Origin: Euryarchaeota archaeon UBA88
Lineage (GTDB): Archaea > Thermoplasmatota > Poseidoniia > Poseidoniales > Poseidoniaceae
Assembly: GCA_002499545.1 (NCBI GenBank)
Contig: DAME01000003.1
Coordinates: 77,089 to 141,088, forward strand
DNA length: 64,000 nt
Direction of reading: 5' to 3'
A program made the translations under genes and the position numbers. Below, piece after piece: positions 24,608 through 41,500 of the stretch. The first letter of the stretch is position 1; the number at the start of each line of letters is the position of its first letter. The notes beneath the pieces are model-generated. The model did not search any database. It was not told the DNA's origin and saw only the letters and a program-made list of their open reading frames with translations.

Positions 24608-25363
24608 TCACACATTCCCTCTGACCGTCTTGCAACCCACGCCCCATTCCTGTTCCTGCATTGCAGAACGTGTCGCATCGAGTAACTCATCTTCTGCCGA
24701 GTATACACGCTCGCTCCCCTTCTTCCAAGCAAGCGCCATTTGAACTCCATCAAAACTCCAACTTTTCAATTGAATTTTTGATTTTTCAATTGATATTTCC
24801 TCATTTCTCTCTTCAATTGGAATTTTAATTAAGCGAGGGTTGAGATGCATCCCTAACTGCATGGCTTTTTGGACAGCTTCTTTCGAAGTCCATAGCTCAA
24901 TAGCCCGGTCAGAATTAGAACGAAGCCACCGCAACTCCTCCCCCTTAGCCATCATGTCAAATGCATTGGCAGCGATACCTCGCTGAGCATCTTCTGCATC
25001 AAAACCGACCGACCAGCCATGTTCTGCCAAAGCCACATACGCCCATCCACTGGAATGGCATACGCTCATTGCAGGCAAAGGTGAATTAAGCCACACACCA
25101 GGTAGATACGAAAGCACTGGAGCCCGCTGTGACGTACGAAGGACTTCAATCGCAGAGACTTCAAGACCCCATTCTCGCAGTGCTTCACCCAATAGCCAAC
25201 GCCCACTGAGATGTTCATTCATACGCTTGGCTGTGGCGAAGGTTGCCACTTCATCAATCTGGGCCAGTCCTACGAGTTCGACCGCGACTGTACGAACACG
25301 GGTCCTAAAAAGTCGCATCTGTATTGGAATAGAAAACGGAGGAAACACTTCCTCGACTGTCAT
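24608..25363 (-). CDS. 4'-phosphopantetheinyl transferase, Sfp type
   Basis: GFDAEDAQ (G-x-D motif) and WTSKEAVQKAMQLG ((F/W)-x-x-KE-A-x-x-K motif). The ATG lies 9 nt after the megasynthase stop, with GGTGG in between. Confidence 0.85.
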   Translation of the reverse strand: MTVEEVFPPFSIPIQMRLFRTRVRTVAVELVGLAQIDEVATFATAKRMNEHLSGRWLLGEALREWGLEVSAIEVLRTSQRAPVLSYLPGVWLNSPLPAMSVCHSSGWAYVALAEHGWSVGFDAEDAQRGIAANAFDMMAKGEELRWLRSNSDRAIELWTSKEAVQKAMQLGMHLNPRLIKIPIEERNEEISIEKSKIQLKSWSFDGVQMALAWKKGSERVYSAEDELLDATRSAMQEQEWGVGCKTVRGNV

Positions 25364-25372
25364 AGTACCACC

Positions 25373-28300
25373 TCAGCGTTCAAGCGTGAACGCTTGTTCA
25401 TCAGGCACTGGAGCCATACTCTTGAGCCGCAGCCCCTTCATTGCGATGACTGGAGCGTCGTCGTCCCCGATAATCACAACATCGTGTACTGTGATACCGG
25501 CATCTTCCACCGATGTGCGTAGACTTCGCATGCGGAGTACTTCATCGCGTTCAGGAACCCGAAGCATCGACGACCACTCAATCCCAACAGGCAGTGACGA
25601 GAAACCTTCAGATTCCATCGCCACCAAGCCAGCGTTCTGGAAACCAGCCTCGATCAACATCGGTAAAGCTTCCAACAACACGACCTCGCCCTGAGTCTCC
25701 AAAGCAAACTGGTCGAGAACTGGGAGTTGGTGCCGCATGAGGGCAATTCCATCTGCTCCGGGCGTCTCCACATCCCCAACACCGCGAAGGACACCTCCGT
25801 GTGATTGGAATCGAGGTCCGTGGAAGTATCGCCTGTAAATGAAGGACGGCAACTCGGAAAGTTCACCCATGGCTGGAGTACCAATGTGAGGCAGCGCATC
25901 AACCTCAGATTGTAGGAAAGGTCCAAGGTCGTCGTGCAGTTCAACGAGACGTACAACAGCGACATGATGTTCCCGTTGTCCGAACACCTCCCCTTTCGAG
26001 TTGGTGAGATCCGAAAGAAGCTGGCATGAAACCCAACTCATGCCACCTTCACTGCGGAGTAAATCACATTGTACGCGTACCGTCATCGCACCCCTTAGCA
26101 ACTTTACTGGCAAACCAAAAGTGACTTCTTCAAATCCAGCCAAGCATGCGGAAGGACGCAGGAGTAAAGCCCCCTCTGCAAACATCTCCAGTGCCATTAC
26201 ACCAGGATGGTAGGGCACGCCATCGATGGCGTGGTCTGACAAGAATGGATGGTCAGCCACAGAGAGAGTAGATTGAGTGGTCAGTGTCGTGCCCTCCGAA
26301 TAATCTAGAACCTTATCGATGAATGGGAACCTGTAAGGGTCTGCCAGTATTGCTGCCATTTCAGCAGGTAATCGAAGTGGTGATTCACGGAACACATCGT
26401 GAACGTCCATGAGACCAAGTCGCCCACATCCCAGAACCCGGCGCTTCCCACCTTTCAGAGCCTCGTCAACGAATATTTCAACGCCTTTTTCTACTGAAAT
26501 AGTATCGATACCTGCTGCATCGAAAACGGCTTGGAACGACCCTCGTGTTGCCATTCCAACATCGCGCCATCCCGTCCATGCAATGGATACTGCTCTGCAC
26601 GTTCCAGTTGCTGTAAGGCGGGCCATCTCTGCATCAAGTACGCTGTTCGCAGCAGCATAATCGGTCTGTCCATTGTTACCAAATCGCCCAGCTACGCTGG
26701 TGAAACATGCAGCAAAGCGTAATCCATCGCTTTGGGATGCTTCTACTGCCGCTATCAAGGCCTGCCATCCATCGACCTTCACTCGAACCACGTTGTCGAA
26801 CACTTGATTGTCCTTGTCAGCGACGAGTTTCGAATCTTCAAGACCTGCGCCGTGCACTATGCCTGTGATTGGGCGACCAAGTTGACTTCCAACCTTCTTC
26901 AACCCGTCAACATCAGTTACATTCACTGAATGATAGGATGCAGTATTACCCGTATCCTCGATGGTCTTGATGGTGAGGTGCACGTCTCGGCTTCGGGTGA
27001 AGTTCTGCCAAGCGTTGTTCCATTCAACCATAGTGACCTTATCACCGTTTTTGGCATCAATCATAGAACTACGAAGAGCGTTTTTGCGGTCTGATAGTTG
27101 TTCATCAGACCAAGCAAGCCATTCGTTGGTTTCTTCGATGAGGTGTGATCGTCCAAGCAATGCAAAGTGTGCTCCGATGTTTGAAGACTGCTGAGCAACG
27201 CCAATTATTGAAGCAGCGGTAACACCAGACCCGCCTCCTGAAACAATCCACGTATCGTCGGACTTGAGAGGCGTTTCGACGTTCGACGAATCCTCGGCGA
27301 AGGCGACAAGCGTCCAACGACGTCCATCTCTATCAAGACCGATTTCGACCTCACCTCCGATATTGAACAAGTCGTGTTCAACTTGTAGCGCCGCCTCGTC
27401 TGCATCAAGAATCAATTCAGGATGAAGGTCCAGTGCGCGTGAACGGACATGCTGCCGTTCAAAGGAATACGATTTGGTCACGCCAGATGCGGCACATTGA
27501 ACGGCATTGAATCGCTCACCAATATTTCCGTGCCGTCCATCAAGGGCCGTAACTGATGCAACCAAGCCATCATTGCGGGTTGAAAGGGCGGCATCGAAGC
27601 CTTTCAACAGCCCGAAGTAACCGTGTGCTGCTAAAGCGATTTGAGAGGAAGGAATGGTATCTTCAACCCACGATGCACCGGCCAGCTTGAGAGGGGCCAT
27701 GTGGACAATTCCAGCCACATTGTGAGAGGAAAGTTCACTGCATACTTTCGCAATGTGTTCGGGGTTGGCAGGATCTGCACGGAAGACCGTTCGTTGACCC
27801 TCCATTTGTGTTGACATGTCACGGATATCGCTTTCAAACCCAACTCGAACAGCTGCAAGTCCGCGGGCTTCTATTTTCTGACATAGTGCCTCTGCGATGC
27901 CCCAGCCATCGTCGGTCACCACGATGGTGCCTTCCAGCGAGAGTGGCGAACTGGTACCTTGGCACTCCTCGACCTCAACTTGCCAGCGTCGGCACGGATC
28001 GGGTGAATCATCCAGCAGCAGCGTTTCAGCAACCGCGAAGTCGCTTGGTTGAGCATGTTCAACGGGTGCGATAGAAATTTCAGTCGCTGAACCTCCCCTC
28101 ATAAGAACGATGTAAGCGATGAAATGATTCAATGTTGGATGGTCAGACAGAATAAATTCTTCATCGATAGGAAGTTCGAATGCATCGCGTACATCGCCCA
28201 TGATTTCGGCTTGCTTGACCGTATCAATTCCCAATTCACCCTCAAGGTCTTGGTCCAACTCGATGAAATCGCTTGGGTAACCGGTGTGCTTGACAACGAT

Positions 28301-31300
28301 TGAAACCAATTGTTCCACAATCGCTTCATCGGTATGAACGCCTACCGGAGCAGGTACTGGTTCGGGAGGTGAATCGGTCTTGACGGGTTGTGGTTCTGCT
28401 GCTGGTTCGACGACTGCTTGGACTGTTGATTTGCCCCCCGTCATGGTTTGAATGTACGCAATCATGTGGTTCAGCGTCGGATAGTCTGAGAGAACAAATG
28501 CTTCATCGACGGGAAGAGAAAACCGTTCCCTGATCTCTGCCATGATTTCTGCTTGTTTGACCGTATCAATACCTAATTCGCCTTCGAGATCTTGGTCTAA
28601 TTCAATGAAGTCACTCGGATAGCCCGTATGATTGACAACGACTTCTACAACTGTAGCGATGAGTTGAGAATCATCGACTGAGGGCCTGGGCCCGGTTTGA
28701 GGAATGGTTTCCGTCGTTGGTACTTCTTTGACTGGTGATTCGGGTACTACAGGGATTTCAGCGGATTGTGAAGGTGCAGCAACTGGCGAACCAGATGTCA
28801 TTCGTTCGATGTACGCAATCATGTGATTAAGGGTCGGATAGTCTGAAAGAATGAACTCTTCATCGACTGGAAGTGAGAACTTTTCTCGGATTTCAGCCAT
28901 GATTTCCGCTTGCTTAACGGTGTCAATACCTAATTCACCTTCCAAGTCTTGTTCTAATTCGACAAAGTCTGCAGGATACCCCGTATGATTGACGACTACT
29001 TCTACAACCGTGGCAACCAAATCGTCAGGTGCTGAAGTCGGTAGCGTTGAGTGGACAACTGGAACTGGTTCTGGCATCGGAACTGGTTCTGGGGCAGGTG
29101 ACGGTTCTGTAACTTCAGCACTCATGCTTGGCATTCCTTCCCAAGCAGCCGTGACGTCCCAAGGCAGACCCTGTACGCCGCCATGTAGGTTCTCATCCCC
29201 TTTCACATATGCAACCAATTTGTTTTCAAGAATTCGTAAGACAACGTCTTCCGTGCCTGCGAGACCTCTTGACCATGCCAAGAATTGCGCACCGTTGATT
29301 CGTTCGCCGACAACCGGCCACTTGCGAACCAAAGACAGTGCTACTTGAGACCCAAAACCTGCAGCAAAGCGTAACCCGTACTCCAAGTGCGGATATTCGC
29401 CACCCTTGGAGAGGTTCAAATTTCCGAGCTCCGGATCGGTTTCTTTATGATTCGCAATCGGAGGGATGCGCCCGGTTTCCAGTCCGTACAACATGCTTGC
29501 ATCCTCGATACCTACACCCATTGGATGGCCAGTGAATCCTTTGGTGTTAGCAATGACAAGCGAGTCAGTGCTTTGGCCAAACGTATCGCGCAGAGCGCGG
29601 ACTTCTGATTGGGCTGAACCCCCACGAGCAGGTGTGAATGTTTCATGCGAGAAGAACACCGTTTTTGGCGCCATTTCATGTCGGTCAAGGTCCCATTTCT
29701 GTTCCATAGAACCGATGAATTGGTCAACAATTTCAGCAACGTGATCCACGTCTAATCGGGTCCCATGGAATGCTGAATTTGCAGTCGTGGCACCAAGTAA
29801 TTCTGCGATAGGTTGTACACCCCTTTCGGCTGCGACTGAATGCCGTTCAACGACGAATGCTGCAGCACCCATACCTAAGATCAACCCGTTTCGACGGCGG
29901 TCAAACGGCAAAGCAGTTTCTTCAACCACATTACCCGTGGCAGCGGCACCTGAAGCTGCAAAGCCGCTTCCAATCCATTCCCACAGATCATCGCCAGTGA
30001 CATCATCTGCTGAGATGATGACAACACGGTCGACTCGATCGCTGTTCAACCAGTCTTCAGCGACACCAAATGCAGCAGTTGAGGATGCGCATGCGAGATT
30101 AATGGTCGTGTTCGGTCCGCGAATCCCAGAATATTGGGCAAATTGTGAATGACCCATGTTGAGAGTCTGGAACAAGTATCGACGGTCAAACCGTCCCTCT
30201 CCATCATCTCCGTTGGTTTTCGCATGCTGCATCGCTTTTTGCAACCCAGGGAAGCAGGATGCGAACACGACACCCGTTCGTTCACGTCGATGTTGAGGTA
30301 CTTCCCAATTCCGAATTAAACGAAGGCCGCCCTTGCCAATTTGCTCGTTTGGAGTGAGCGGTATTCCGGCATCTCTCAGGGCCAAAAGCCCCGCTGCAAC
30401 ACCCAATTGTGTCGTGATGTCCCATGCCAATATGGATTTAGGGTCGATTCCGAATTCATCTGCTAAATCAAACGCTGCCTTCACCCCAGCAAGTTGAGGT
30501 ATGTCTCCAAACTCAGTTGCTTGTTCCATGTTCACAGAACCGTCTCGGCCTTTGATGAGGCGGACGATGTTCTTGTCGAGGAGGCGTTGTTTGTATTCGT
30601 CACTGACTTCAGAGATACAGGTCTCACCTCGAATGAGACGCTCAAAGGTGTCTTCTTCAAAGACGCGTTCTCCTCCGGGTAGACCCAACGACACCCCTGT
30701 GATGACATACGGGTCTGCTTTGCGTTGTTCGTGCAGCGACGGTGAAGATGAGTGCTGAACCGATGCACTTGGGACTGCGTGTACCATTGAGGTGCGAGGC
30801 GTCCATGCTGGTGGCGGGCCCTCGACCCAAGCCATCAAGTCGGACGCGAGAACCAAACTGGAACGGTCGATGTCTGGCTTCGTAGAAGTCTCGGTAGAGA
30901 TGGTATGGAGTAAGGAGGTCACCTTTTGCTCAGACAGGCCAAGGCCTGCTCGAAGGTTGACATTACCGTTACAGAATCGAGAGGGGTATCCGCTCAGTGC
31001 CGCTAATCGGTCCCCGATGTAGGCCTCTTTGGCTTCACGGGCTGCAACTTCAGGGTCGATGATTTTTGATTGTTGAACCGTGACGGTTCGAGGTAGTGCA
31101 GCAGGAGAAGAGCTTTCAACGGTGGGCAAAGGACGTGAACGGGTCCGCAAATCCTCCACGTGCGAGGACAATTTTGGTGATGGATTAGCTACGTGATAGG
31201 CTTCTAATGGCCCGGCACGGAATCCTTCAGAGAGGACGGTCGAGGTTCCAGCTGGCCAGATGGGTTGACGGCCGGCTAGAGCTAGCGTACCCAATGCGGA

Positions 31301-34192
31301 GAGGAAAGAAGCAATACCGCCCTGCTTGGGGTGGTTTGTCATGATTGGAAGATGGGGTTGGTCTTCTAGAATTTGAACAGCAAACATTGTCAATGCCCGC
31401 TTTGGACCTACTTCAAGGAACACTCGGGCACCTGCCTCATACATGGTTTCAATTTGTGTCGTCCATTCGACCGCTGATGCCATTTGTGGTGCTAACTTTT
31501 CAAGAATACCTGCCTTCGAATCTTTTCCTTCAGTGGGATAAAATTGTCCGTCGACGTTCGCAGTGATTGGGATACTAGGCCAGCGAATCTCGAGCCCTTC
31601 GAGGAAACGGCGAAGTGGTTCGTTCGCAGGGGCGACGATGCGTGAATGGAATGCGTGAGATGTAGCGAGGGGGACGCACTGGAAACCTTTGGCATCAAAC
31701 GTAGCCACGGCATTCTTGACAGCGTCGGTTTCCCCAGCAATTACGGTCATCTTCGGAGAGTTCTTGTTGGCAGCAATAACGTAGCCATCCGCTTCACTCA
31801 GCACAGCCGCAACCTCATCGTAAGGCGCCATAATACTCGCCATCAGCCCTTTATCATCGATTACGACCGAGCCCATTTCAGTACCTCGTGCCGCAGAAGC
31901 ACGCAGGGCGCCGTCCATGTCAAGAATTCCTGCAGACATCAAGGCAGCGTATTCACCAAGTGAGTGCCCAGCGACCATATCGGGCTTTTGCCCATGGTCA
32001 TTCAGTGCTCGTTCAATGGCTAAGTCGGCTGTAAGCATGGCAGGTTGAGTGTATTCAGTTTGCTTCAGTTTGAATTCTGCTTCTTTGAGTTGCTCTTTAT
32101 CCAGATTCGCACGGAGGACGAAACTGGAAAGCGTTTCTCCGTCAAGAACCTCGACCATCGTTCTGTCAGCTTGCGCCCACACCTCTTGGACTGATGAAAA
32201 ACGTTGATACAAGTCATAGGTCATACCGACATACTGACTACCCTGGCCCGGATACATGTGGGCTATCTTTGCCTGAGAAGGAAGTGGAGGATCGTTGGTA
32301 ATGAGAACGCCTTGGGCCTGTAAGAACCCCCATTTCTCTGAATCGTCCATCGCTTTCAGGGCCAGAGCGGTTCGCTTGTGGAACTCGGACCATGATGTTG
32401 CAACAATGCACATTCGGAATGACGCCTTGGCATCAAATTCAGACGACATATGGTTCAATACGATCGATAATCGTTGACCGTGGGGGTCGCTGTCGAAATG
32501 TTCGCCGTCCAGTTCCAATGATTCAATCTGCGACTTCAACCCGGATAGTTCGTCTGCCGAGAGCAGGAGAATTCCCCCCTCAATCGCCTTCAACTCGTCG
32601 TGAGTCATGCTTGGTGTGGCGGTGGAATCGAGTATAGATGGTGATTCAGGCACCGTATTCGTACCAATTGTGGAAGTGTTTTTGGCATAAGCATCCCATC
32701 GATTCTGCCATTGTGAAGCAAGTTCTGCGTGATAGTCTGGCTCATATCCTTCTAGAGCGACGTGAAAATTCGTGCCCCCAAATCCGAAGGCAGAGACTCC
32801 GGCTCGGCGAGGATGACCTTCTGGACGTGGCCAGTCACGGGCCTCAGTTGGTACGAAGAACGGGATATTCCCCCAGTCGACGGTGGGATTTGGAGTCTTG
32901 AAACCGGCAGAAGGGGGGATTGTTCGATGGTGAAGGGCCATGGCTGATTTGATCAGGCCAGCGATTCCCGCAGCAGCCTTCAAGTGGCCGATTTGTGACT
33001 TTATTGAACCGACTGCGACATGGTCACCCGGTGGTGAACCATCCCATATAAGCGAAAGAGAGCCCAATTCAGTTGCGTCTCCAACCTTGGTTGAAGTCCC
33101 GTGCGCTTCGATGAGTTCCACTGTCGTAGCATTGTATCCCGCTTGCTCGTACGCACGGGCAATCGCTTGGAGTTGGCCGCGCTGACTTGGAGCAGTGATT
33201 CCCTTGCCCCTACCATCAGATGAACCACCGACGCCCCGAATGACAGCATACACTTCGTCGCCATCATGAATCGCATCGTTCAAGCGCTTGAGGACAAATG
33301 CGCCTGCACCCTCGCCCATCACGAAACCGTTTGCTCCAGCGTCAAAAGGCGTCGAATGTGTTGGTGAAAGGGCGCCAATCGCGCTGAACTTCGCGTACGT
33401 AGGGGCGTCTAAGCTTCGGTCCGTAGCGCCAGCAACCATGGTGTCGACTTGTCGCATCTGTAAGGCGCGACAAGCGTCGAGAACTGCTGCCAAGGACGAG
33501 GCACATGCCGCGTCCATTGCGTAATTGGGACCTTGGAGGTCGAGAAGATTCGCTACCCTTCCAGCAACAACGTTCGCTAATTCACCTGGCATGGTGTCTT
33601 CATTGATGCGAGGGGTGTTTTGAATCATAGAATCGACGAAAGCTTTCGCATTCGAATCCGGAAGCCCCTGTGCTTTGGCAAGTTCTGAGACGTGATTCGA
33701 ATAAATCCGGATGTTGGAAAGGTTTCGGTTCTCGCCACCTAATGCATTCGCAAATGCAACTCCAGTACGCTTTCGGTCGATGTCTTTCTCAACGCCATCA
33801 TACCCTGCTTGTTCAATTGCAGCGGCAGCGACGCTGACCGCCCATTGCTGGCTCAAATCGATTTGAGATAATGTTCCTGGTGGCTGCTTCCAGCGCCGCC
33901 AATCGAATTCATACCCCTCGACCATTGCACCAATTTTCGAATAAGTGAATCCTTCCTCGATATTACCCGGTCCGCCTTCGCGATAGAAATGCTTCATCGG
34001 CCCGGTCCAGCGGTCATCCCGCAGCGTCCGAATACTGACTTTGGCATCGAGAATGTTTTGCCAAAACGCATCGATATCTGGGGCATCGGGCATCAGTGCT
34101 GAAATCCCAACCACTGCAATGGGTTCAAACGGACCTTGGTCAAGGCCCTCGATTTCGTTTCCTTTCGAATCTTTAACCATAGAATCCCTCAT
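25373..34192 (-). CDS. Iterative type I PKS / PUFA-synthase-like megasynthase, KS-AT-KS-ACPx3-KR-DH
   Basis: The track ORF starts at 34291 and overlaps fabI. ATG 34192 overlaps the fabI stop as ATGA (alternative ATG 34180 with GAGGGA upstream). Domain motifs are listed in the sub-features below. Confidence 0.95.
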   Translation of the reverse strand: MRDSMVKDSKGNEIEGLDQGPFEPIAVVGISALMPDAPDIDAFWQNILDAKVSIRTLRDDRWTGPMKHFYREGGPGNIEEGFTYSKIGAMVEGYEFDWRRWKQPPGTLSQIDLSQQWAVSVAAAAIEQAGYDGVEKDIDRKRTGVAFANALGGENRNLSNIRIYSNHVSELAKAQGLPDSNAKAFVDSMIQNTPRINEDTMPGELANVVAGRVANLLDLQGPNYAMDAACASSLAAVLDACRALQMRQVDTMVAGATDRSLDAPTYAKFSAIGALSPTHSTPFDAGANGFVMGEGAGAFVLKRLNDAIHDGDEVYAVIRGVGGSSDGRGKGITAPSQRGQLQAIARAYEQAGYNATTVELIEAHGTSTKVGDATELGSLSLIWDGSPPGDHVAVGSIKSQIGHLKAAAGIAGLIKSAMALHHRTIPPSAGFKTPNPTVDWGNIPFFVPTEARDWPRPEGHPRRAGVSAFGFGGTNFHVALEGYEPDYHAELASQWQNRWDAYAKNTSTIGTNTVPESPSILDSTATPSMTHDELKAIEGGILLLSADELSGLKSQIESLELDGEHFDSDPHGQRLSIVLNHMSSEFDAKASFRMCIVATSWSEFHKRTALALKAMDDSEKWGFLQAQGVLITNDPPLPSQAKIAHMYPGQGSQYVGMTYDLYQRFSSVQEVWAQADRTMVEVLDGETLSSFVLRANLDKEQLKEAEFKLKQTEYTQPAMLTADLAIERALNDHGQKPDMVAGHSLGEYAALMSAGILDMDGALRASAARGTEMGSVVIDDKGLMASIMAPYDEVAAVLSEADGYVIAANKNSPKMTVIAGETDAVKNAVATFDAKGFQCVPLATSHAFHSRIVAPANEPLRRFLEGLEIRWPSIPITANVDGQFYPTEGKDSKAGILEKLAPQMASAVEWTTQIETMYEAGARVFLEVGPKRALTMFAVQILEDQPHLPIMTNHPKQGGIASFLSALGTLALAGRQPIWPAGTSTVLSEGFRAGPLEAYHVANPSPKLSSHVEDLRTRSRPLPTVESSSPAALPRTVTVQQSKIIDPEVAAREAKEAYIGDRLAALSGYPSRFCNGNVNLRAGLGLSEQKVTSLLHTISTETSTKPDIDRSSLVLASDLMAWVEGPPPAWTPRTSMVHAVPSASVQHSSSPSLHEQRKADPYVITGVSLGLPGGERVFEEDTFERLIRGETCISEVSDEYKQRLLDKNIVRLIKGRDGSVNMEQATEFGDIPQLAGVKAAFDLADEFGIDPKSILAWDITTQLGVAAGLLALRDAGIPLTPNEQIGKGGLRLIRNWEVPQHRRERTGVVFASCFPGLQKAMQHAKTNGDDGEGRFDRRYLFQTLNMGHSQFAQYSGIRGPNTTINLACASSTAAFGVAEDWLNSDRVDRVVIISADDVTGDDLWEWIGSGFAASGAAATGNVVEETALPFDRRRNGLILGMGAAAFVVERHSVAAERGVQPIAELLGATTANSAFHGTRLDVDHVAEIVDQFIGSMEQKWDLDRHEMAPKTVFFSHETFTPARGGSAQSEVRALRDTFGQSTDSLVIANTKGFTGHPMGVGIEDASMLYGLETGRIPPIANHKETDPELGNLNLSKGGEYPHLEYGLRFAAGFGSQVALSLVRKWPVVGERINGAQFLAWSRGLAGTEDVVLRILENKLVAYVKGDENLHGGVQGLPWDVTAAWEGMPSMSAEVTEPSPAPEPVPMPEPVPVVHSTLPTSAPDDLVATVVEVVVNHTGYPADFVELEQDLEGELGIDTVKQAEIMAEIREKFSLPVDEEFILSDYPTLNHMIAYIERMTSGSPVAAPSQSAEIPVVPESPVKEVPTTETIPQTGPRPSVDDSQLIATVVEVVVNHTGYPSDFIELDQDLEGELGIDTVKQAEIMAEIRERFSLPVDEAFVLSDYPTLNHMIAYIQTMTGGKSTVQAVVEPAAEPQPVKTDSPPEPVPAPVGVHTDEAIVEQLVSIVVKHTGYPSDFIELDQDLEGELGIDTVKQAEIMGDVRDAFELPIDEEFILSDHPTLNHFIAYIVLMRGGSATEISIAPVEHAQPSDFAVAETLLLDDSPDPCRRWQVEVEECQGTSSPLSLEGTIVVTDDGWGIAEALCQKIEARGLAAVRVGFESDIRDMSTQMEGQRTVFRADPANPEHIAKVCSELSSHNVAGIVHMAPLKLAGASWVEDTIPSSQIALAAHGYFGLLKGFDAALSTRNDGLVASVTALDGRHGNIGERFNAVQCAASGVTKSYSFERQHVRSRALDLHPELILDADEAALQVEHDLFNIGGEVEIGLDRDGRRWTLVAFAEDSSNVETPLKSDDTWIVSGGGSGVTAASIIGVAQQSSNIGAHFALLGRSHLIEETNEWLAWSDEQLSDRKNALRSSMIDAKNGDKVTMVEWNNAWQNFTRSRDVHLTIKTIEDTGNTASYHSVNVTDVDGLKKVGSQLGRPITGIVHGAGLEDSKLVADKDNQVFDNVVRVKVDGWQALIAAVEASQSDGLRFAACFTSVAGRFGNNGQTDYAAANSVLDAEMARLTATGTCRAVSIAWTGWRDVGMATRGSFQAVFDAAGIDTISVEKGVEIFVDEALKGGKRRVLGCGRLGLMDVHDVFRESPLRLPAEMAAILADPYRFPFIDKVLDYSEGTTLTTQSTLSVADHPFLSDHAIDGVPYHPGVMALEMFAEGALLLRPSACLAGFEEVTFGLPVKLLRGAMTVRVQCDLLRSEGGMSWVSCQLLSDLTNSKGEVFGQREHHVAVVRLVELHDDLGPFLQSEVDALPHIGTPAMGELSELPSFIYRRYFHGPRFQSHGGVLRGVGDVETPGADGIALMRHQLPVLDQFALETQGEVVLLEALPMLIEAGFQNAGLVAMESEGFSSLPVGIEWSSMLRVPERDEVLRMRSLRTSVEDAGITVHDVVIIGDDDAPVIAMKGLRLKSMAPVPDEQAFTLER
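25412..26329 (-). other. Megasynthase domain DH (PKS-type double hot-dog dehydratase)
   Basis: LSDHAIDGVPYHPG matches H-x3-G-x4-P (His2687). The C-terminal hot-dog half contains GPRFQ... Confidence 0.75.
26432..27994 (-). other. Megasynthase domain KR (ketoreductase with structural subdomain)
   Basis: TWIVSGGGSGVTAASIIG Rossmann motif, GIVHGAGLED and catalytic GQTDYAAANSVLDA. Confidence 0.85.
28094..29023 (-). repeat. Three tandem acyl-carrier-protein domains (coding repeat, period 357 and 342 nt)
   Basis: Three copies of ...VVNHTGYPSDFIELDQDLEGELGIDTVKQAEIMAEIRE.F.LPVDE.F.LSDYPTLNHMIAYI... separated by P/E/V-rich linkers. The copies differ at many synonymous sites. Confidence 0.9.
29318..30715 (-). 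other. Megasynthase domain KS2 (second, apparently catalytically intact ketosynthase)
   Basis: INLACASSTAAF (Cys1401, codon 30089-30091), PFDRRRNGLILGMGAAAFVVE, SAFHGTRLD (His1509) and NTKGFTGHPMG (His1589). Confidence 0.85.
31352..32266 (-). other. Megasynthase domain AT (malonyl-type acyltransferase)
   Basis: YPGQGSQYVGM, GHSLGEYAA (Ser777, codon 31961-31963) and the SHAFHS (HAFH) motif associated with malonyl specificity. Confidence 0.9.
32747..34129 (-). other. Megasynthase domain KS1 (ketosynthase)
   Basis: EPIAVVGISALMPDA, DAACASS (Cys263 in ORF-track numbering, codon 33503-33505), EAHGTSTKVGD and GSIKSQIGH. Confidence 0.9.
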
Positions 34193-34983
34193 TGGTCCAT
34201 AATGCTCGGAGGCACCATCGTGATTGAGTATCCACCATCGACGTAAATGCATTGGCCGGTCACGCCACTTGCAAGAGGACTTGCAAGCCACAGCGTGGCA
34301 CCTGCAACGTCTTCTTGGTTGACATTTCTCCTCAAAGGAGCGTTTTCCTCGACGTGAGCAAGGATGTTATCGAAACCAGGGACTCCGCTTGCGGCAATGG
34401 TGCGAATCGGCCCGGAAGATATGGCGTTAACTCGGTGACCTTCGGGGCCTAAATGGCATGCAAGTTCGCGAGTCCAACATTCAAGGGCTGCTTTGGCCAT
34501 CGACATAATACCATAATTTGGAACGAATCTATTGGAAGCAGCGTAGGTCAGAGTGATCGTTGAAGAACCGGGGTTAAGGTACGGAAGTGCATGCTTCAAA
34601 CAGCGTTGAAGTGAGTTGGCAGAAATGGTCATTGCCGTGTTAATATCGGTGTCTTCAACGAAAAGAATTGGGCGGTCGAAGCAGGCTCGAGGTGCAAAGC
34701 CGATGGCGTGAATGAGGATATCTGCCTTCTTACCAGGGTGTTCTTTCTCAAAGGCTTCGAAGAATTCACGAGTCGTTGCGTCTTCTGCAACATCCAGAGG
34801 ATAAAATCCCCCTATCTGTGGAAGTTTGTCCTTCAGTTGGAAAATACGACTCATGAATCTTTTCTGATAACCGAGATACAGCGTCACACCTGCGGCAGCG
34901 AGATGTTGACAAATCGCCCAAGCAATGGAATCTTCACTGGCGACTCCGAAAACGAAGGCTGTCTTTCCTTGTAATTTGAGCAT
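34189..34983 (-). CDS. fabI: Enoyl-[ACP] reductase, FabI type
   Basis: GKTAFVFGVASEDSIAWAI, NYGIMSMAKAALE (Y-x6-K) and SSGPIRTIAASG. Start taken at Met14 with GGTTGGTG upstream (the track ORF starts at 35022). Confidence 0.9.
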   Translation of the reverse strand: MLKLQGKTAFVFGVASEDSIAWAICQHLAAAGVTLYLGYQKRFMSRIFQLKDKLPQIGGFYPLDVAEDATTREFFEAFEKEHPGKKADILIHAIGFAPRACFDRPILFVEDTDINTAMTISANSLQRCLKHALPYLNPGSSTITLTYAASNRFVPNYGIMSMAKAALECWTRELACHLGPEGHRVNAISSGPIRTIAASGVPGFDNILAHVEENAPLRRNVNQEDVAGATLWLASPLASGVTGQCIYVDGGYSITMVPPSIMDQ

Positions 34984-35097
34984 AAATGCACCAACCCAAT
35001 GGGTAGATGTTGGCTGACACACCAGTCCTATGACTGTTCCCTCTCATGGAATAAAGAAAACAGTGGTTCTGCAACCCTTTTTTGACGGCCGAAACGG

Positions 35098-36234
35098 TCA
35101 CAAATCATCGAATAAATCGTCGAATTCATCTGATTCCTCAGAATCCATGTCCAAGTCAGAGAACATATCATCGAAATCATCGTCCTCTGCCCCACTTTCT
35201 TCGGGTTCTTCTGGAAGAATGATCGGTTGTTTGAGGGTTGGTTTTTGCTGCTTTTTCGGCTTTTTGCGTACGACTCGCACAAGAACGAGCAGGAACAACA
35301 CCAGGAGAAGAGAACCGCCGCCAATAGCAGCATACATTATCGTGTCATCGTCGCTGATTGAAGTCAAACCTTCCAAACCACTGGATTGACTCTGGCCTTT
35401 GACGTCAAGCTGGATCGTGACTTCGCTGAATTGGGCTGAATCATCGTTGCCACTCTGAGCGCGAATGATGAGTGGATTTCGAAGGTCTTCACTCAACTGT
35501 GAAGGAGAACGGATGCTCAATGTCTTGACAGAAGAGGTTCCTTGCGAAGGCACGTTTTCGCTGATAAATGTGCCTGCTGGGAATGAGAAACCTGCAGCTT
35601 CGAGTTCGGCAGCATTCGCTATGACAACCTCGAGTTTGTCGTCATCGTTTCCTTTATTGGTCATTTGGAAGGTGAATTCTACTTCTTCACTTGTCTCCAT
35701 ATACCGTGTGGTGATGTCTGAAAGTGAGAGTTCAATCATTCCGTAGGATTCGATACTAAAGTCGCCAATGTAGGTCGTGTTTGCAACCCAAGGACCTTCC
35801 GGCAACTGCCCGTACGGAAGACTGTTCCACGATTCTACCTTGGCTTCAATCACGAATTCATGCATGATTGAAGCCGAAAGCTTGGTTTGTCCAGAAAAGA
35901 GAAGCTCAAATGTATCGTCTTCACCTGCAGCGAGCGTGAACGAATCTTCTGAGAGTGAGAGTTCGACTAAAATTCCATCCCATTCGATGACCTCAATGCT
36001 GATGTCTTCACTCGCAGAAGTTGGGTTGGTTACAGTGCACACCACGGATACCTCGGCATCCGAGGTTGGCCGGACGTCCATGACAGGGTCTGAACCACAG
36101 TCCAATTCAACTGCTGGAAGCGGCGAGCCTTGTGCTGATGCGGTGGAAAGAAAGCATGGAGCAATGAACAGTGCCATCACAAGGCCGATTATCAAGGACT
36201 TATGAACGGATGACACGGTTATGGGTGAGGGCAT
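35098..36234 (-). CDS. Type I membrane/surface protein with acidic cytoplasmic tail
   Basis: N-terminal signal-like segment (LIIGLVMALFIAPCFLSTASAQG), a beta-rich ectodomain of about 280 aa, a C-terminal TM (GGGSLLLVLFLLVLV) followed by RVVRKKPKK, then an acidic tail with two (D/E)FDD(M/L)F repeats. Confidence 0.65.
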   Translation of the reverse strand: MPSPITVSSVHKSLIIGLVMALFIAPCFLSTASAQGSPLPAVELDCGSDPVMDVRPTSDAEVSVVCTVTNPTSASEDISIEVIEWDGILVELSLSEDSFTLAAGEDDTFELLFSGQTKLSASIMHEFVIEAKVESWNSLPYGQLPEGPWVANTTYIGDFSIESYGMIELSLSDITTRYMETSEEVEFTFQMTNKGNDDDKLEVVIANAAELEAAGFSFPAGTFISENVPSQGTSSVKTLSIRSPSQLSEDLRNPLIIRAQSGNDDSAQFSEVTIQLDVKGQSQSSGLEGLTSISDDDTIMYAAIGGGSLLLVLFLLVLVRVVRKKPKKQQKPTLKQPIILPEEPEESGAEDDDFDDMFSDLDMDSEESDEFDDLFDDL

Positions 36235-38599: not shown

Positions 38600-41500
38600 T
38601 TACTGGCTCTCTACCCACTCGAGTAACGCTTGAACGCTCCATCCTTGGTCGAAGTATCCTTGGATTTCTTCCTGAGTCCACTGAGGGAACTTCTGCATGG
38701 CATCACGCATCTCTGGTGAGAGGCTCGAGGCTGCTGGAGGCGGCCCTGAGAGAGTCGAAGATTGCTGAGGAATATCGACATAGGTTTTCGAATCTGATTC
38801 ATCGTCTTCATCGAACAAGTCAGATTCTCCACTGCGACGGATCAGAACGAATACCAGTGTTCCGAGTACTGCTACGGCAATTCCGAGTATCGATGCTAAC
38901 ACCACGAATCCAGTCGAGTCAGACGACTGACTTTCGACCTTGACGTTGAATGATTCTCCTACAGAGGAACCGTTGAACAACAGTTCATTTGTCGTGTTGT
39001 CTGAAATCATGTAGTACATTCCAGTAGTCGCCAAATTAAACTGTTGAAGTTCAACTGAAATCCACGACTTTTGTCCAACTGCAATTTCTCCGGTAGATAC
39101 GCTGCTCTCAAAGATGGGGGTACTTCCACCAATCACCGAGCGGATATTGAGGTCTGTGGATCCGTCCATAGTCCCATCGTTTCGAACTTCGATTTCAAGT
39201 GTAACCTTGTCGCCAACCTCTGGAGATGAAGGCGACATGATCACGTTATCGATGAGGAAACTGGCTTCTTCATGAATCAACTCATACATGGACTTGTGAA
39301 CTGGGTCCCCTGAATTGATGAATCCAATACTTCCGTCTTCATTTGGGCCGCCGCCAAGAATTGCACGGGTACCTGCTGAATCGGTTGCATCAATCCAAAA
39401 CACGATATCGACGTTGGATATTTGCTCACGTTCAGGATCATCTTGTCCTTCTGAGAGTGGCCACAAGTCGATGCAGTCACCAACTGCAGAATACGAACCA
39501 CCGCTCTCACTGATGATGAGTTCATGCGACATTGGTTCATCGCCGAAAGTACTGCGGTAAATCGGCCAAGTAATGTTGTTGGACGAATCGGTGTAGAAAC
39601 TCCACGAAACAAAGACGTCGCCTTGGAACATTGCTTCTCGTTCTTCGAGAGCAACTTGTACATCGACACAATGGAAGGTCGAAGTCGGCAACACATTTGC
39701 CATTGGCTCATTGGTCAATCCTTTCATTGCAGACCATGAGTTGGATGAAACCCGAGGTGCGGTTCCGTCAACTTTGATCTTGAAGTTTTGGCACCCATAT
39801 GAAGCGGAGCCGGCACAGAATGCAGAGGTACTGTCAACTGCTCCCAGAGGGAGGCCAGCAATACCGTTTCCACACTCACCGTTGACTCCACCAGAACCAC
39901 CGGTCGCGTCATAGGGGCACAATCTGAAGACGTAGGTGTATTCGTTGGTCACTGGAGGTGCCGTGATGTTAATGTCGAATACGCCACCAGTGAACGAGTG
40001 ATATGTCACTTCACCAGGGAATGCAATGTAACCCTTGGCGCCGTCCATAGATGCAGCTTGCCGGGTAATCTCGAGCGTCAATTCGGTTTCAGGAGTGATG
40101 TAGACTTCGTTGTTAATTCCTTCAACGTAAGCGTATTGACCCTCAAATCCAATGATGTCACCGGGATAGACGAAGCCCTTGCGAACATCGTTTGTTTTCG
40201 GCTCCATGAGATCCATGAATGTAGGTGTGACCATCAAATCGTTGGCCGTATCTGCACGGAAATCAAGTTGAATTCCATCACTGTAGTACCAGTCTTGAAT
40301 GTGTCGACCGGGAGCCGGCAACATGCGGTATCGTGGGTTATCCAAGTCCTGCATGTACAGCACAGGGTTGTTCAACGAACTGGAAGCACCCGGCAGCCCC
40401 CACGTCATTCGAATCGGCAGGTCGAGGTAGAAATCAGATTCAAACGGATCGATTAAGACGCCGCCATCCATTCGCAGAACTTGGGGTCCTTGTGATGTCG
40501 CCGATTCTCCGAGAATTTCGATGAATGGGCTTGAAGTCCATGCAGTTTGGTTTCGTGGGAAGAACCAGACGGTCATGTCGTCTCGGTCATCAGCCAGGTC
40601 GACTCGGAAGTAGTCAACATCACGCCATCCGTTGTCGTCGTTTGCTTCTACAATCAGGTGATATTCGTTTCCAGCGTACATGGTTTGGTTCCACTTTCCG
40701 TTGTATTGCTGTTGATTGGACTTAAGGAAGCGACTTTCCTGTGAATCTTCAACGAAGAAATTTCGGATCACTGGCGACTTAGAACTCATTGAAACATAGG
40801 TGAACTTATCGTTTTCAAATCCTGGTGCTCCACCGTTTATGGCGTTACCAGCGAGGTCAAATCCTTCAATCCAAATGCTGACTTTACCTACTGGGTCTTT
40901 ACCAACGTTCGCGTAATCGTTGAACGTTGCGGTGTAGTTTGCAAATGGAGCGGCTCCATCGCTGTTTGCTGTCACCGTGATGTATTCATCAGCATCGGCT
41001 TGTCCATCACCATTCGTGTCGTGGTCGTGTTCGACCCATACCATGATGTTCAGCGACGAAGGCGGATTTGGAAGGTCGCTAGCATTCAAACGGATTTTCT
41101 GAGTTGTTGATGGAACAACCCACGTATCATCAACCATCACACGCCAGTTACTTTCCACCGATGGATCGACTTCTCCGTTAAGAATTCGCACATCGACAAG
41201 ATTCGGGTCCAGTGTGTCGATTGAAAGGTTGAACGGAATAGCACAGGAACTGTCAGGTCGGTACTCTGCAGCAGGGCAAAGTGTGTCTCCACCCTCGTAA
41301 CCGTCTATGCGGAAACGATAGGTGTCTTGACCAGCAGCCATGCCGAGGTCAATTTGCCAGTTGAAGTCACCGCCAATTACACCTGATTGGTTTGCAACTG
41401 TATGCCATTCAACGCTGATGTTTCCATTCGAGTTGTTGATGAACTTCTGTTCAAGCACCATAAAGTAGCCACTTGGGTCAGGTGATATCGACAGGTCTTG

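What the first reader, a model, noticed from the sequence alone, without database searches (positions are those of the whole stretch)
28094..29023. All three tandem carrier domains have Thr at the position of the phosphopantetheine-accepting Ser
The three ACP repeats all read ...DLEGELGIDTVKQAEIM.... In the canonical carrier motif (L/I)G(I/L/M)DS(I/L), for example LGIDSIKRVEI in PUFA-synthase ACPs, the residue after Asp is the Ser that receives 4'-phosphopantetheine. Here it is Thr in every copy: ACC at 28919-28921, ACG at 28562-28564 and ACG at 28220-28222. The copies differ at many synonymous sites, including the Thr codon itself. The Thr is therefore conserved under selection, not a sequencing error and not the result of recent gene conversion. 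A dedicated Sfp-type PPTase is encoded 9 nt downstream. Two explanations are possible. Either this PPTase/carrier pair uses Thr as the acceptor, which would be biochemically unusual, or the domains are not classical holo-ACPs.
Basis: partly seen in the sequence, partly recalled or inferred. Interest (0 to 1): 0.75.

Follow-up and report, generated by a model that had tools for sequence, protein, structure and literature searches.

The report
Carrier domains with threonine acceptor site
A marine archaeon's large fatty-acid/polyketide-type synthase has threonine where every textbook acyl carrier domain has the cofactor-bearing serine, and this is the rule for a large, biochemically untested synthase family found in many bacterial phyla and some archaea.

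Summary
All three tandem ACP domains of the 2,972-aa synthase (25373-34291, minus strand) read LGIDTVKQAEIM. Sequence, profile and structure comparisons all put the Thr on the phosphopantetheine-accepting Ser, as the first residue of helix II.

It is not peculiar to this locus. The gene is a Poseidoniales (Marine Group II archaeon) orthologue of the "Type R" pfaA-like secondary lipid synthase of Shulse & Allen 2011, whose product is unknown.

- In 918 related ACP domains the site is Thr 666, Ser 246 and anything else 3.
- A genome scan that allowed Ser or Thr in G[IV]D-x-VKQAE found 311 Thr and 3 Ser, in several bacterial phyla and in archaea.
- Ser and Thr swap between close orthologues.
- One Heimdallarchaeal polypeptide carries Ser, Thr and Ser ACPs plus a fused PPTase.
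- The co-encoded Sfp-type PPTase and every catalytic domain keep their active-site motifs.

Best explanation, inferred and not shown: the Thr is phosphopantetheinylated by the cluster's own PPTase. This is notable because E. coli ACP S36T cannot be modified. My literature searches found no description of a Thr acceptor. Mass spectrometry is the decisive test.

The parts
25373..34192 (-). Synthase CDS with domain order KS-AT-(degenerate ACP-like domain)-KS2-ACP x3-KR-DH. The mechanical ORF runs to a GTG at 34291. The likely start is the ATG at 34192-34190, which overlaps the fabI stop TGA at 34191-34189 (ATGA).
   Evidence: ORF list, translation, Pfam. NCBIfam TIGR02813 PfaA scores 892.9 bits against a cutoff of 1010.1. 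The ATGA overlap was read.
32738..34126 (-). KS1. Motifs: Cys in DAACASS (33494-33514), His in EAHGTST, His in KSQIGHLK.
   Evidence: Pfam PF00109/PF02801/PF16197 over aa 56-518; motif coordinates.
31280..32257 (-). Acyltransferase domain with GHSLGE (31952-31969) and HAFH (31646-31657). From my own knowledge, HAFH is the malonyl-CoA-type motif.
   Evidence: Pfam PF00698 over aa 679-1004; TIGR00128 FabD; motifs.
30799..31066 (-). Degenerate ACP-like domain between AT and KS2 (approximately aa 1076-1165, ...LSGYPSRF...GLGLSEQKV...). The acceptor position is Glu. There is no conserved Ser.
   Evidence: phmmer with this stretch hits genuine ACP domains. In the alignment the acceptor position is E in the window, L002 and P0125, and P in P0195. 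The -1 position is S or N.
29192..30715 (-). KS2 with a full Cys-His-His set (NLACASS, SHETFTP, KGFTGHPMG). It is called 'CLF' in the Type R description, but here it looks like an active ketosynthase.
   Evidence: phmmer alignment to FabF 4DDO places Cys, His and His on the catalytic residues; coordinates.
28787..29023 (-). ACP1. The acceptor-position residue is Thr1791, codon ACC at 28919-28921.
28430..28666 (-). ACP2. The acceptor-position residue is Thr1910, codon ACG at 28562-28564.
   Evidence: The AF2 model has pLDDT 94.2 with the Thr as first residue of helix II. Foldseek matches solved ACPs.
28088..28324 (-). ACP3. The acceptor-position residue is Thr2024, codon ACG at 28220-28222.
26492..27274 (-). 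Ketoreductase domain (approximate bounds). Motifs: GGGSGVTAA for NADP(H) binding and YAAAN.
   Evidence: Pfam PF08659 over aa 2434-2577; motifs.
25409..26344 (-). PKS-type dehydratase domain with an HxxxGxxxxP motif (HAIDGVPYHP, 26204-26233).
   Evidence: Pfam PF21089/PF14765; motif.
24608..25363 (-). Dedicated Sfp-type 4'-phosphopantetheinyl transferase, 251 aa, starting 9 nt after the synthase stop codon.
   Evidence: Pfam PF01648 scores 32.6 bits against a cutoff of 25. A family profile hits Sfp 1QR0/4MRT at E=3e-9, with H103, D122, E124, E162 and K166 aligned on the Sfp residues I know as H90, D107, E109, E151 and K155. The AF2 model has pLDDT 88. The top Foldseek hits are AASDHPPT, Sfp, PcpS and PptT.
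34189..35022 (-). FabI-type enoyl-ACP reductase, translationally coupled upstream of the synthase. It is the likely trans-acting ER.
   Evidence: Pfam PF13561 at 236 bits. NCBIfam FabI models are the best hits, up to 226 bits, all below their equivalog cutoffs. The same gene order occurs in Poseidoniales locus L002.

Best explanation
The three domains are working acyl carrier domains of an iterative type-I FAS/PKS-like synthase. The synthase has the order KS-AT-KS-ACP3-KR-DH and uses a trans FabI. It belongs to the 'Type R' pfaA-like family.

In this family the 4'-phosphopantetheine arm is attached to a Thr hydroxyl instead of a Ser hydroxyl. The attachment is made by the Sfp-type PPTase that travels with the synthase, encoded next to it or fused to it. 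That PPTase accepts Thr and probably Ser as well. The neighbouring residue co-varies with the acceptor (DT-V versus DS-I), which suggests steric compensation for the extra methyl group of Thr.

Shown here:
- positional and structural equivalence of the Thr to the acceptor Ser;
- restriction of the site to Thr or Ser across the family;
- intact catalytic motifs;
- linkage of the PPTase to the synthase.

Inferred: that the Thr is actually modified, and that the synthase makes fatty-acyl chains in this archaeon.
For: 1. Equivalence of the site.
- phmmer alignments to PigH, AcpM and other ACPs put the Thr on the acceptor Ser.
- Pfam PF00550 matches three times.
- In the AF2 model the Thr is the first residue of helix II.
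- Foldseek TM to solved ACPs is 0.8-0.9.

2. A hydroxyl is required at the site.
- hmmalign of 918 ACP domains from 255 proteins gives T 666, S 246 and A/P/D 1 each, plus 3 gaps at the site.
- No other column of the Thr family exceeds 20% Ser.
- The only other conserved hydroxyl residues, T17 and T67, are equally conserved in the Ser-type relatives.

3. Natural Ser/Thr interchange.
- An orthologue 46-49% identical to the window synthase reads GELGVDSVKQAEIM and has its own downstream PPTase.
- In an NJ tree, 3 Ser-type domains nest among 41 Thr-type domains of the archaeal clade.
- P0145 has the pattern T,T,T,T,S.
- One uninterrupted ORF of Ca. Heimdallarchaeum aukensis has ACPs reading DSIK, DTVK and DSIK, followed by KR-DH and a fused PPTase domain.

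4. The machinery is intact.
- Catalytic motifs of KS1, KS2, AT, KR and DH are present.
- The PPTase keeps the Mg/catalytic residues aligned to Sfp.
- The PPTase model has an Sfp-type fold.

5. The PPTase is linked to the synthase.
- A PPTase lies downstream in all five loci that extend far enough downstream: four with Thr-type ACPs (L001, L002, L123, L124) and the Ser-type L126.
- A PPTase-like ORF is present in 45 of 126 loci, even though most loci are only 8 kb.
- In about nine loci, including both Heimdallarchaeota loci and several labelled Myxococcales, the PPTase match lies inside a 3-7.5 kb ORF and looks fused to the synthase. Fusion was verified only for L017.

6. Selection. dN/dS between the repeats is far below 1 with dS saturated. 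All four Thr codons are used across the family.
Against: No biochemical data exist for any member that I could find.

In the best-studied system, E. coli ACP S36T cannot be phosphopantetheinylated and is non-functional (PMC3340395). Thr acceptance therefore needs a PPTase with different tolerance.

I found no clear specificity determinant in the PPTase. The only hint is a weak bias, KEA in 80% of Thr-linked PPTases against KES in Sfp, AASDHPPT and the Ser-linked L126. The canonical motif, as I recall it, allows both.

The Ser/Thr restriction could in principle reflect helix N-capping rather than catalysis.
Confidence: 0.7

Rival explanations
1. The domains stay unmodified. They are apo pseudo-ACPs that act as scaffolds or spacers. 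The synthase would then be inactive or would use another carrier such as CoA thioesters, and the PPTase would serve some other target.
For: Thr is a standard null substitution in E. coli ACP (PMC3340395). The synthase does contain one clearly degenerate ACP-like domain, so degeneration of ACPs occurs in this protein.
Against: - The site is Thr or Ser in 912 of 918 domains. Decaying sites would be expected to drift to Ala, Gly or Asn.
- The LGxD-T-VKQAE context is almost invariant.
- Tandem multiplicity of 3-6 is kept, as in PUFA synthases.
- No alternative carrier was found in the window or in the related loci examined.
- The PPTase is adjacent or fused in distant lineages.
- All partner domains keep their active sites.
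Confidence: 0.12
2. The arm, or another prosthetic group, is attached at a different residue: another Ser or Thr of the domain, or the degenerate ACP-like domain between AT and KS2. The helix-II Thr would then be only structural.
For: Two other Thr residues are highly conserved: T17 in TGY at 93% and T67 in PTL at 94%. The degenerate ACP-like domain reads GLGLSEQKV, with a Ser one position before the canonical site.
Against: - T17 and T67 are just as conserved in the Ser-type relatives that have a normal acceptor Ser, so they are structural.
- The Ser of the degenerate domain is Asn in a close orthologue (P0125), and its acceptor position is Glu or Pro.
- No other column in the Thr family exceeds 20% Ser.
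- As far as I know, no carrier protein bears its Ppant arm anywhere but the N-terminus of helix II.
Confidence: 0.05
3. The Thr is modified, but poorly. It would act as a built-in throttle or a specificity filter. In that case only the cognate PPTase can activate the synthase, which keeps it orthogonal to host AcpS or Sfp enzymes and makes the cassette self-sufficient on transfer. Alternatively the Thr phosphodiester resists hydrolysis or beta-elimination.
For: The PPTase is tightly linked or fused to the synthase in phylogenetically scattered hosts. Shulse & Allen argue for horizontal spread (PMC3098273). E. coli AcpS cannot use S36T.
Against: This is a refinement of the best explanation, not a true alternative. 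Nothing computed here speaks to rates, orthogonality or stability. In Poseidoniales the locus looks native (GC about 0.50 throughout). Archaea generally lack competing ACP systems, from my own knowledge.
Confidence: 0.1

Closest known systems
'Type R' secondary lipid synthase gene cluster (Shulse & Allen 2011, PLoS One, PMC3098273). It is described in Koribacter versatilis, Solibacter usitatus, Elusimicrobium minutum and Roseiflexus.
   Same: - One pfaA-like gene with the order KS-MAT-'CLF'-ACP(3-6)-KR, followed by a PPTase gene.
- The window protein is colinear with the synthase of an E. minutum genome at 36% identity over KS2-ACP and 26% over KR-DH.
- That E. minutum synthase has four LGIDTVKQAELF repeats.
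- The PPTase has the hShxH (P1b') motif reported for Type R, here MSVCH.
   Different: - The host here is an archaeon (Poseidoniales).
- The ER partner is FabI. The bacterial loci I looked at instead carry an acyl-CoA-dehydrogenase-like gene and often ACC genes.
- The 'CLF' has a full Cys-His-His set.
- The P1a motif reads RAP in the archaeal PPTases, not (G/D)xP.
- The paper never mentions threonine (0 occurrences), and the product is unknown.
PfaA of bacterial and thraustochytrid PUFA synthases (TIGR02813)
   Same: It is the best NCBIfam hit, at 892.9 bits. Both have tandem ACPs joined by Pro/Ala-rich linkers, a KS-AT N-terminus, KR-DH after the ACPs and a dedicated Sfp-type PPTase. In an unbiased HMMER search, PfaA ACPs (LGIDSIKRVEIL) are among the closest Ser-type relatives.
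   Different: The score is below the family cutoff of 1010.1. A second KS lies between AT and the ACPs. No pfaB, pfaC or pfaD genes are in the window. The acceptor is Thr followed by Val, not Ser followed by Ile.
Sfp / PfaE / AASDHPPT group II phosphopantetheinyl transferases
   Same: Both have the two-domain fold. The residues H103, D122, E124, W158, K161, E162 and K166 are conserved and align to the catalytic residues of Sfp.
   Different: The window PPTase is very divergent. phmmer with the single sequence finds no PDB chain. All its presumed substrates in this genome region carry Thr, whereas every substrate of the characterised enzymes carries Ser.
E. coli AcpP S36T, a laboratory mutant
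   Same: It has the same substitution at the same position of the same fold.
   Different: In E. coli the substitution abolishes modification and function (PMC3340395). Here it is the conserved wild-type state of hundreds of natural domains.

Membership tests
Phosphopantetheine-binding carrier domain (Pfam PF00550) | Profile match above the gathering score | tested here: met
   84.1 bits against a cutoff of 20.8, in three stretches. The best stretch covers profile positions 3-67 of 67.
Phosphopantetheine-binding carrier domain (Pfam PF00550) | Helical ACP fold with the acceptor residue at the N-terminus of helix II | tested here: met
   The AF2 model has pLDDT 94.2. Helix II spans residues 38-52 and begins at the Thr. 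Foldseek TM to solved ACPs is 0.8-0.9.
Phosphopantetheine-binding carrier domain (Pfam PF00550) | Ser as the acceptor in the GxDS motif | tested here: not met
   Thr in all three copies. It aligns on the Ser of PigH, AcpM and other ACPs.
Phosphopantetheine-binding carrier domain (Pfam PF00550) | Covalent 4'-phosphopantetheine on the acceptor residue | not testable with these tools
   This needs mass spectrometry of the expressed domains.
Type R secondary lipid synthase (Shulse & Allen 2011) | A single pfaA homologue with the order KS-MAT-CLF-ACP(3-6)-KR | tested here: met
   Pfam gives KS, AT, a second KS, three ACPs, KR and also DH. The 'CLF' position is occupied by a KS with Cys-His-His.
Type R secondary lipid synthase (Shulse & Allen 2011) | A PPTase gene directly downstream | tested here: met
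   24608-25363, 9 nt after the synthase stop codon.
Type R secondary lipid synthase (Shulse & Allen 2011) | PPTase motifs P1b' (hShxH) and P1a (x(G/D)xP) | tested here: inconclusive
   P1b' is present (M-S-V-C-H, ending at H103). P1a reads Q-R-A-P in the Poseidoniales sequences, but DGAP or HGWP in the bacterial Type R-like PPTases.
Type R secondary lipid synthase (Shulse & Allen 2011) | Homology to the synthase of a named Type R species | tested here: met
   tblastn against an Elusimicrobium minutum genome (L116) is colinear from AT to DH at 26-43% identity. That synthase has four DT repeats.
Type R secondary lipid synthase (Shulse & Allen 2011) | Placement of the first KS inside the Type R clade of the KS tree | not tested
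   No KS phylogeny with the paper's reference set was built.
PUFA synthase subunit PfaA (TIGR02813) | Score above the curated cutoff | tested here: not met
   892.9 bits against a cutoff of 1010.1.
PUFA synthase subunit PfaA (TIGR02813) | Partner genes pfaB, pfaC (KS-CLF-DH2) and pfaD (ER) in the cluster | tested here: not met
   None of the 28 neighbouring ORFs scanned is one of these. The only partners are FabI and the PPTase.
Sfp-type (group II) PPTase | ACPS superfamily domain and conserved catalytic Asp/Glu/Glu/Lys residues | tested here: met
   PF01648 scores 32.6 bits against a cutoff of 25. D122, E124, E162, K166 and H103 are invariant across 26 family members and align to Sfp.
Sfp-type (group II) PPTase | Two-domain pseudo-dimeric fold of about 230 aa | tested here: met
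   The AF2 model has pLDDT 88. The best Foldseek hits are AASDHPPT 2CG5, Sfp 4MRT, PcpS and PptT, with TM 0.55-0.66.
Sfp-type (group II) PPTase | Transfer of Ppant from CoA to a carrier-domain hydroxyl | not testable with these tools
   This needs an enzyme assay.

The most novel reading that the evidence does not exclude
There exists a large natural class of carrier domains whose 4'-phosphopantetheine is esterified to threonine. It comprises several hundred sequence clusters, spread over several bacterial phyla, Poseidoniales and Heimdallarchaeota. The domains are serviced by a co-inherited, sometimes fused, Sfp-type PPTase that tolerates or prefers Thr. In Marine Group II archaea, which lack the archaeal glycerol-1-phosphate backbone enzyme according to Rinke et al. 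(PMC6461757), this Thr-ACP synthase would be the cell's route to bacterial-type fatty acids.
Probability: 0.6. Interest if true: 0.78.

Novelty: new variant of a known kind. Interest (0 to 1): 0.66.

Why it matters
The conserved serine is treated as a defining feature of carrier proteins in FAS, PKS and NRPS biochemistry. Ser-to-Thr is used as a null mutation.

A widespread natural Thr-acceptor family would matter in four ways.
- It would extend the known chemistry of PPTases.
- It would offer a possibly orthogonal PPTase/carrier pair for engineering and labelling.
- It would flag a blind spot in motif-based annotation. From my own knowledge of the pattern, PROSITE-style GxDS rules would call these domains inactive.
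- It would make two open questions testable: what the uncharacterised Type R synthases produce, and whether abundant marine archaea (Poseidoniales) and Asgard archaea make fatty acids with an ACP-dependent machine.

Tried and rejected
- **Sequencing error or gene conversion.** Rejected. dS between the repeats is saturated, different Thr codons are used, and the trait is family-wide.
- **Misalignment, with a real Ser nearby.** Rejected by the phmmer-to-PDB alignments, the Pfam match, the AF2 model and per-column Ser frequencies.
- **The degenerate ACP-like domain between AT and KS2 as the true Ser carrier.** Rejected. Its acceptor position is Glu or Pro, and the neighbouring Ser is Asn in a close orthologue.
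- **Word-index bias in the first homologue search.** That search could have inflated the Thr count. I controlled for this with a DNA pattern that allowed Ser or Thr and with an index-free HMMER search.
- **Literature.** Ten full-text searches were run. They included phrases for threonine phosphopantetheinylation and the motif string, both with 0 hits, Poseidoniales plus ACP/fatty acid (0 hits), and follow-ups on Type R (only the 2011 paper). No description of a Thr acceptor was found. The library omits most subscription journals, so absence there is not proof.
- **phmmer of the PPTase alone against PDB.** It found nothing meaningful. A family profile was needed.
- **A Thr-specificity determinant in the PPTase.** Only a weak KEA-versus-KES bias and family-specific residues turned up. 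This is not conclusive.
- **Names of the long homologues**. The look-up gave no cultured organism or informative annotation.
- **PPTase-ACP complex modelling.** It could not be done with the tools at hand.

Full report
**1. The observation**

The minus-strand ORF 25373..34291 encodes a 2,972-aa multidomain protein. Pfam finds the following domains:
- KS (aa 56-518);
- acyltransferase (aa 679-1004);
- a second ketoacyl-synthase stretch;
- three PP-binding domains;
- KR;
- a PKS-type DH.

Each carrier domain reads ...DLEGELGIDTVKQAEIM....

Three lines of evidence show that the Thr is the acceptor-position residue.
- phmmer against all PDB chains aligns it on the phosphopantetheine Ser of the PigH ACPs, AcpM and other ACPs.
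- An AlphaFold2 model of ACP2 (mean pLDDT 94.2) has helices at 2-17, 38-52 and 68-78, so the Thr (residue 38 of the domain) is the first residue of helix II.
- Foldseek superposes the model on solved ACPs with TM 0.8-0.9.

The three repeats are 66-76% identical in DNA. The proportion of synonymous differences is 0.71-0.84, which is saturated, and dN is 0.12-0.25. They are therefore old duplicates under purifying selection. Sequencing error and recent gene conversion are excluded.

**2. The host and the locus**

The neighbouring genes include a TATA-binding protein, a thermosome subunit, HMG-CoA synthase, DnaK, ThrRS, CTP synthase and other housekeeping genes. The host is therefore an archaeon. 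Homologues of the ACP region and of the PPTase are labelled Candidatus Poseidoniales, or Marine Group II. A Poseidoniales contig (L002) has the same gene order: TBP, TatD, an unknown gene, FabI, synthase, PPTase. GC content is flat at about 0.50 across the window, so the cluster looks native.

Directly upstream of the synthase lies a FabI-type enoyl-ACP reductase (34189-35022). Its TGA stop overlaps an ATG of the synthase (ATGA at 34192-34189). That ATG is a more plausible start than the GTG at 34291.

Nine nucleotides downstream lies a 251-aa PPTase (24608-25363).
- It is too divergent for single-sequence matching to PDB.
- A profile of the family hits Sfp (1QR0/4MRT, E=3e-9), AASDHPPT, AcpS, EntD and PptT.
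- H103, D122, E124, W158, K161, E162 and K166 are invariant. They align on the Sfp motifs isHs, GiDiE and WsmKEsfiK, which hold the residues I know as H90, D107, E109, W147, K150, E151 and K155.
- Its AF2 model (pLDDT 88) matches Sfp-type PPTases best.

The other domains keep their catalytic signatures:
- KS1 has Cys, His and His;
- AT has GHSLGE and HAFH;
- KR has the Gly-rich NADP(H) motif and YAAAN;
- DH has HxxxGxxxxP.

The second KS aligns its Cys, His and His on the catalytic residues of FabF. It looks like an active ketosynthase and not a chain-length factor.

**3. How general the Thr is**

*Word-indexed search.* A search with the tri-ACP region returned 741 hits. In the best 120 proteins almost every repeat reads LG[IV]DTVKQAE. 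That search favours shared words, so I ran two controls.

*Control 1: DNA pattern.* I scanned one genome per GTDB species with a DNA pattern for G-[IV]-D-x-V-K-Q-A-E in which x could be Ser, Thr, Cys, Trp or Arg.
- All four Thr codons are used.
- The hosts include Poseidoniales, Heimdallarchaeota, Acidobacteriota, Chloroflexota, Actinomycetota, Myxococcota, Elusimicrobiota (including Elusimicrobium minutum), Gemmatimonadota, Rhodothermales and a spirochaete.

*Control 2: index-free HMMER search.* I searched one ACP domain against 1.84 billion cluster representatives.
- 2,579 hits had E<=1e-10.
- The best 150 split into the DTVKQ family, which is the majority, and several Ser-type families. These are canonical PfaA (LGIDSIKRVEIL), LGIDSIKKAQLF and a few others.

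*The acceptor column.* I aligned all 918 ACP domains of the 255 retrieved proteins to one model.
- The acceptor column is T 666, S 246 and A, P, D one each, with 3 gaps at the site.
- 196 proteins are all-Thr, 52 are all-Ser and one is mixed.
- No other column of the Thr family exceeds 20% Ser.
- The two other conserved Thr residues (in TGY and PTL) are equally conserved in the Ser-type families.

**4. Ser and Thr behave as equivalents**

- An orthologue 46-49% identical to the window synthase (P0195, locus L126) has GELGVDSVKQAEIM in an otherwise almost identical motif context, and is followed by its own PPTase.
- In a neighbour-joining tree built with the acceptor column masked, canonical PfaA ACPs fall outside the rest. 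Three Ser-type domains nest among 41 Thr-type domains of the archaeal clade. The tree rests on about 78 columns and is only indicative.
- In the complete genome of Ca. Heimdallarchaeum aukensis, one uninterrupted ORF of at least 2,511 aa carries three ACPs that read DSIK, DTVK and DSIK. They are followed by KR-DH and a C-terminal fused PPTase domain with the motifs SISHS, GIDIE and WTAKESLTK. One PPTase domain is thus covalently tied to both kinds of site.
- The residue after the acceptor co-varies with it: T-V 659, S-I 234, S-V 11 and T-I 7. The rule holds even inside the Heimdallarchaeal protein. The pattern looks like a methyl-group swap that keeps the packing at the helix N-terminus constant. 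That reading is my inference, and the counts are not phylogenetically independent.

**5. What the system is**

The bacterial loci with Thr-type ACPs show the same enzyme set, split over several genes:
- an acyl-CoA-dehydrogenase-like gene;
- KS-AT-KS;
- the tandem ACP protein;
- KR-DH;
- a PPTase;
- often acetyl-CoA carboxylase genes.

tblastn shows that the window protein is colinear with these loci and with loci from E. minutum, Actinomycetota and Heimdallarchaeota.

This matches the 'Type R' secondary lipid synthase of Shulse & Allen (2011, PMC3098273). They describe one pfaA homologue with the order KS-MAT-CLF-ACP(3-6)-KR plus a downstream PPTase, in Koribacter, Solibacter, Elusimicrobium minutum and Roseiflexus. 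The product is unknown, and an ACC gene sits in the Koribacter cluster. An E. minutum genome in my set has four LGIDTVKQAELF repeats. The paper does not contain the word threonine.

The window protein scores 892.9 bits on the PfaA model TIGR02813, below the cutoff of 1010.1. No pfaB, pfaC or pfaD gene is present in the window. It is a relative of PUFA synthases but not a member of that family.

**6. Mechanism**

Several facts point the same way.
- The acceptor position tolerates only hydroxyl residues.
- Ser and Thr interchange between orthologues and within polypeptides.
- No alternative Ser exists.
- Every partner activity is intact.
- A catalytically complete Sfp-type PPTase is adjacent or fused.

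The most economical reading is that the Thr hydroxyl receives the phosphopantetheine arm, and that the domains then work as ordinary carriers in an iterative KS/KR/DH/ER cycle fed by malonyl units. I put this at about 0.7.

It is inferred. Nothing here shows the modification. In E. coli the same substitution (ACP S36T) blocks modification and function (PMC3340395), so the family's PPTase must differ in tolerance. I could not identify how. The only hint is that 80% of Thr-linked PPTases have Ala after the catalytic Glu (KEA), whereas Sfp, AASDHPPT and the Ser-linked L126 enzyme have Ser. This is weak, because the canonical motif, as I recall it, allows both.

Why Thr is preferred is open. Possibilities are orthogonality to host PPTases, stability of the phosphodiester, or neutral drift fixed by co-adaptation.

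The rivals are less likely, for the reasons given in the rival entries:
- apo or scaffold domains (about 0.12);
- attachment at another residue (about 0.05).

The chain-release step and the product are unknown. No thioesterase domain was seen.

**7. Novelty and verdict**

The trait is not a curiosity of this window. It is the hallmark of a very large synthase family that has been catalogued but not studied biochemically, and the window holds an archaeal member of it.

Within the literature I could search, nobody has pointed out the Thr or tested it. That library lacks most subscription journals, so prior description cannot be excluded.

I rate it a new variant of a known kind, namely carrier domains with a Thr acceptor. 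Interest is about 0.66. A specialist would be surprised, and the experiment that settles it is simple.

Noticed in passing
L017:3-7535 (Ca. Heimdallarchaeum aukensis CP084166.1, 488001-496000): One uninterrupted ORF of at least 2,511 aa carries three ACPs with Ser, Thr and Ser at the acceptor site (DSIK, DTVK, DSIK), followed by KR-DH and a C-terminal fused PPTase domain. An Asgard archaeon therefore encodes an ACP-dependent, self-activating type-I synthase.
   Followed up: partly
window 28199-28930 and 918 related domains: The residue after the acceptor co-varies with it: T-V 659, S-I 234, S-V 11, T-I 7. This looks like a methyl-group swap, possibly steric compensation. The counts are not corrected for phylogeny.
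   Followed up: partly
window 29192-30715 (-): The second condensing domain is described as a chain-length factor in the Type R literature. Here it has the full Cys-His-His catalytic set aligned to FabF, so the synthase may contain two active ketosynthases.
   Followed up: partly
window about 30799-31066 (-): A degenerate ACP-like domain (GYP...GLGLSEQKV) lies between AT and KS2. It has Glu at the acceptor position. The orthologues I compared also have it.
   Followed up: partly
window 34189-34192: There is an ATGA overlap between the fabI stop codon and an ATG of the synthase. The real synthase start is probably at 34192, not the GTG at 34291, and the two genes look translationally coupled.
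   Followed up: yes
L001, L123, L124, L125: Bacterial versions of the system use an acyl-CoA-dehydrogenase-like gene of about 545 aa where the archaeon has FabI. They often include biotin carboxylase/BCCP and carboxyltransferase genes. The dehydrogenase-like protein may be an unusual enoyl reductase.
   Followed up: no
window 24608-25363 and 45 PPTases from Thr-type loci: PPTases next to Thr-type ACPs mostly read KEA after the catalytic Glu (80%). Sfp, human AASDHPPT and the PPTase of the Ser-type orthologue L126 read KES. In L126 the otherwise invariant His103 equivalent is Thr.
   Followed up: partly
window 38600-44515 (-): A 1,971-aa ORF has no Pfam match at E<=0.001. It lies four genes upstream of fabI in the same orientation. 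The syntenic Poseidoniales locus L002 also begins with a large gene that has no recorded Pfam hit.
   Followed up: no
window 51005-52810 (-): A flavodoxin-FAD-NAD(P) reductase fusion, with the architecture of cytochrome P450 reductase or the sulfite reductase flavoprotein, is encoded in an archaeal genome.
   Followed up: no
window 48985-50325 (-): A biotin carboxylase (AccC-type) lies 15 kb from the synthase. It could supply malonyl-CoA. No carboxyltransferase or BCCP gene was identified among the ORFs scanned.
   Followed up: no
window 35098-36234 (-) and 59938-63816 (-): A 'choice-of-anchor T' family protein lies next to fabI. A 1,292-aa protein elsewhere in the window has only a Laminin_G_3 domain. 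Both are probably surface proteins.
   Followed up: no
P0150 and relatives (ACP motif LGIDSIKKAQLF): A sizeable Ser-type sister family of tandem-ACP synthases has a different domain order, with AT about 600 aa after the first KS and two KS stretches. Its ACPs group next to the archaeal Thr clade in the tree.
   Followed up: no
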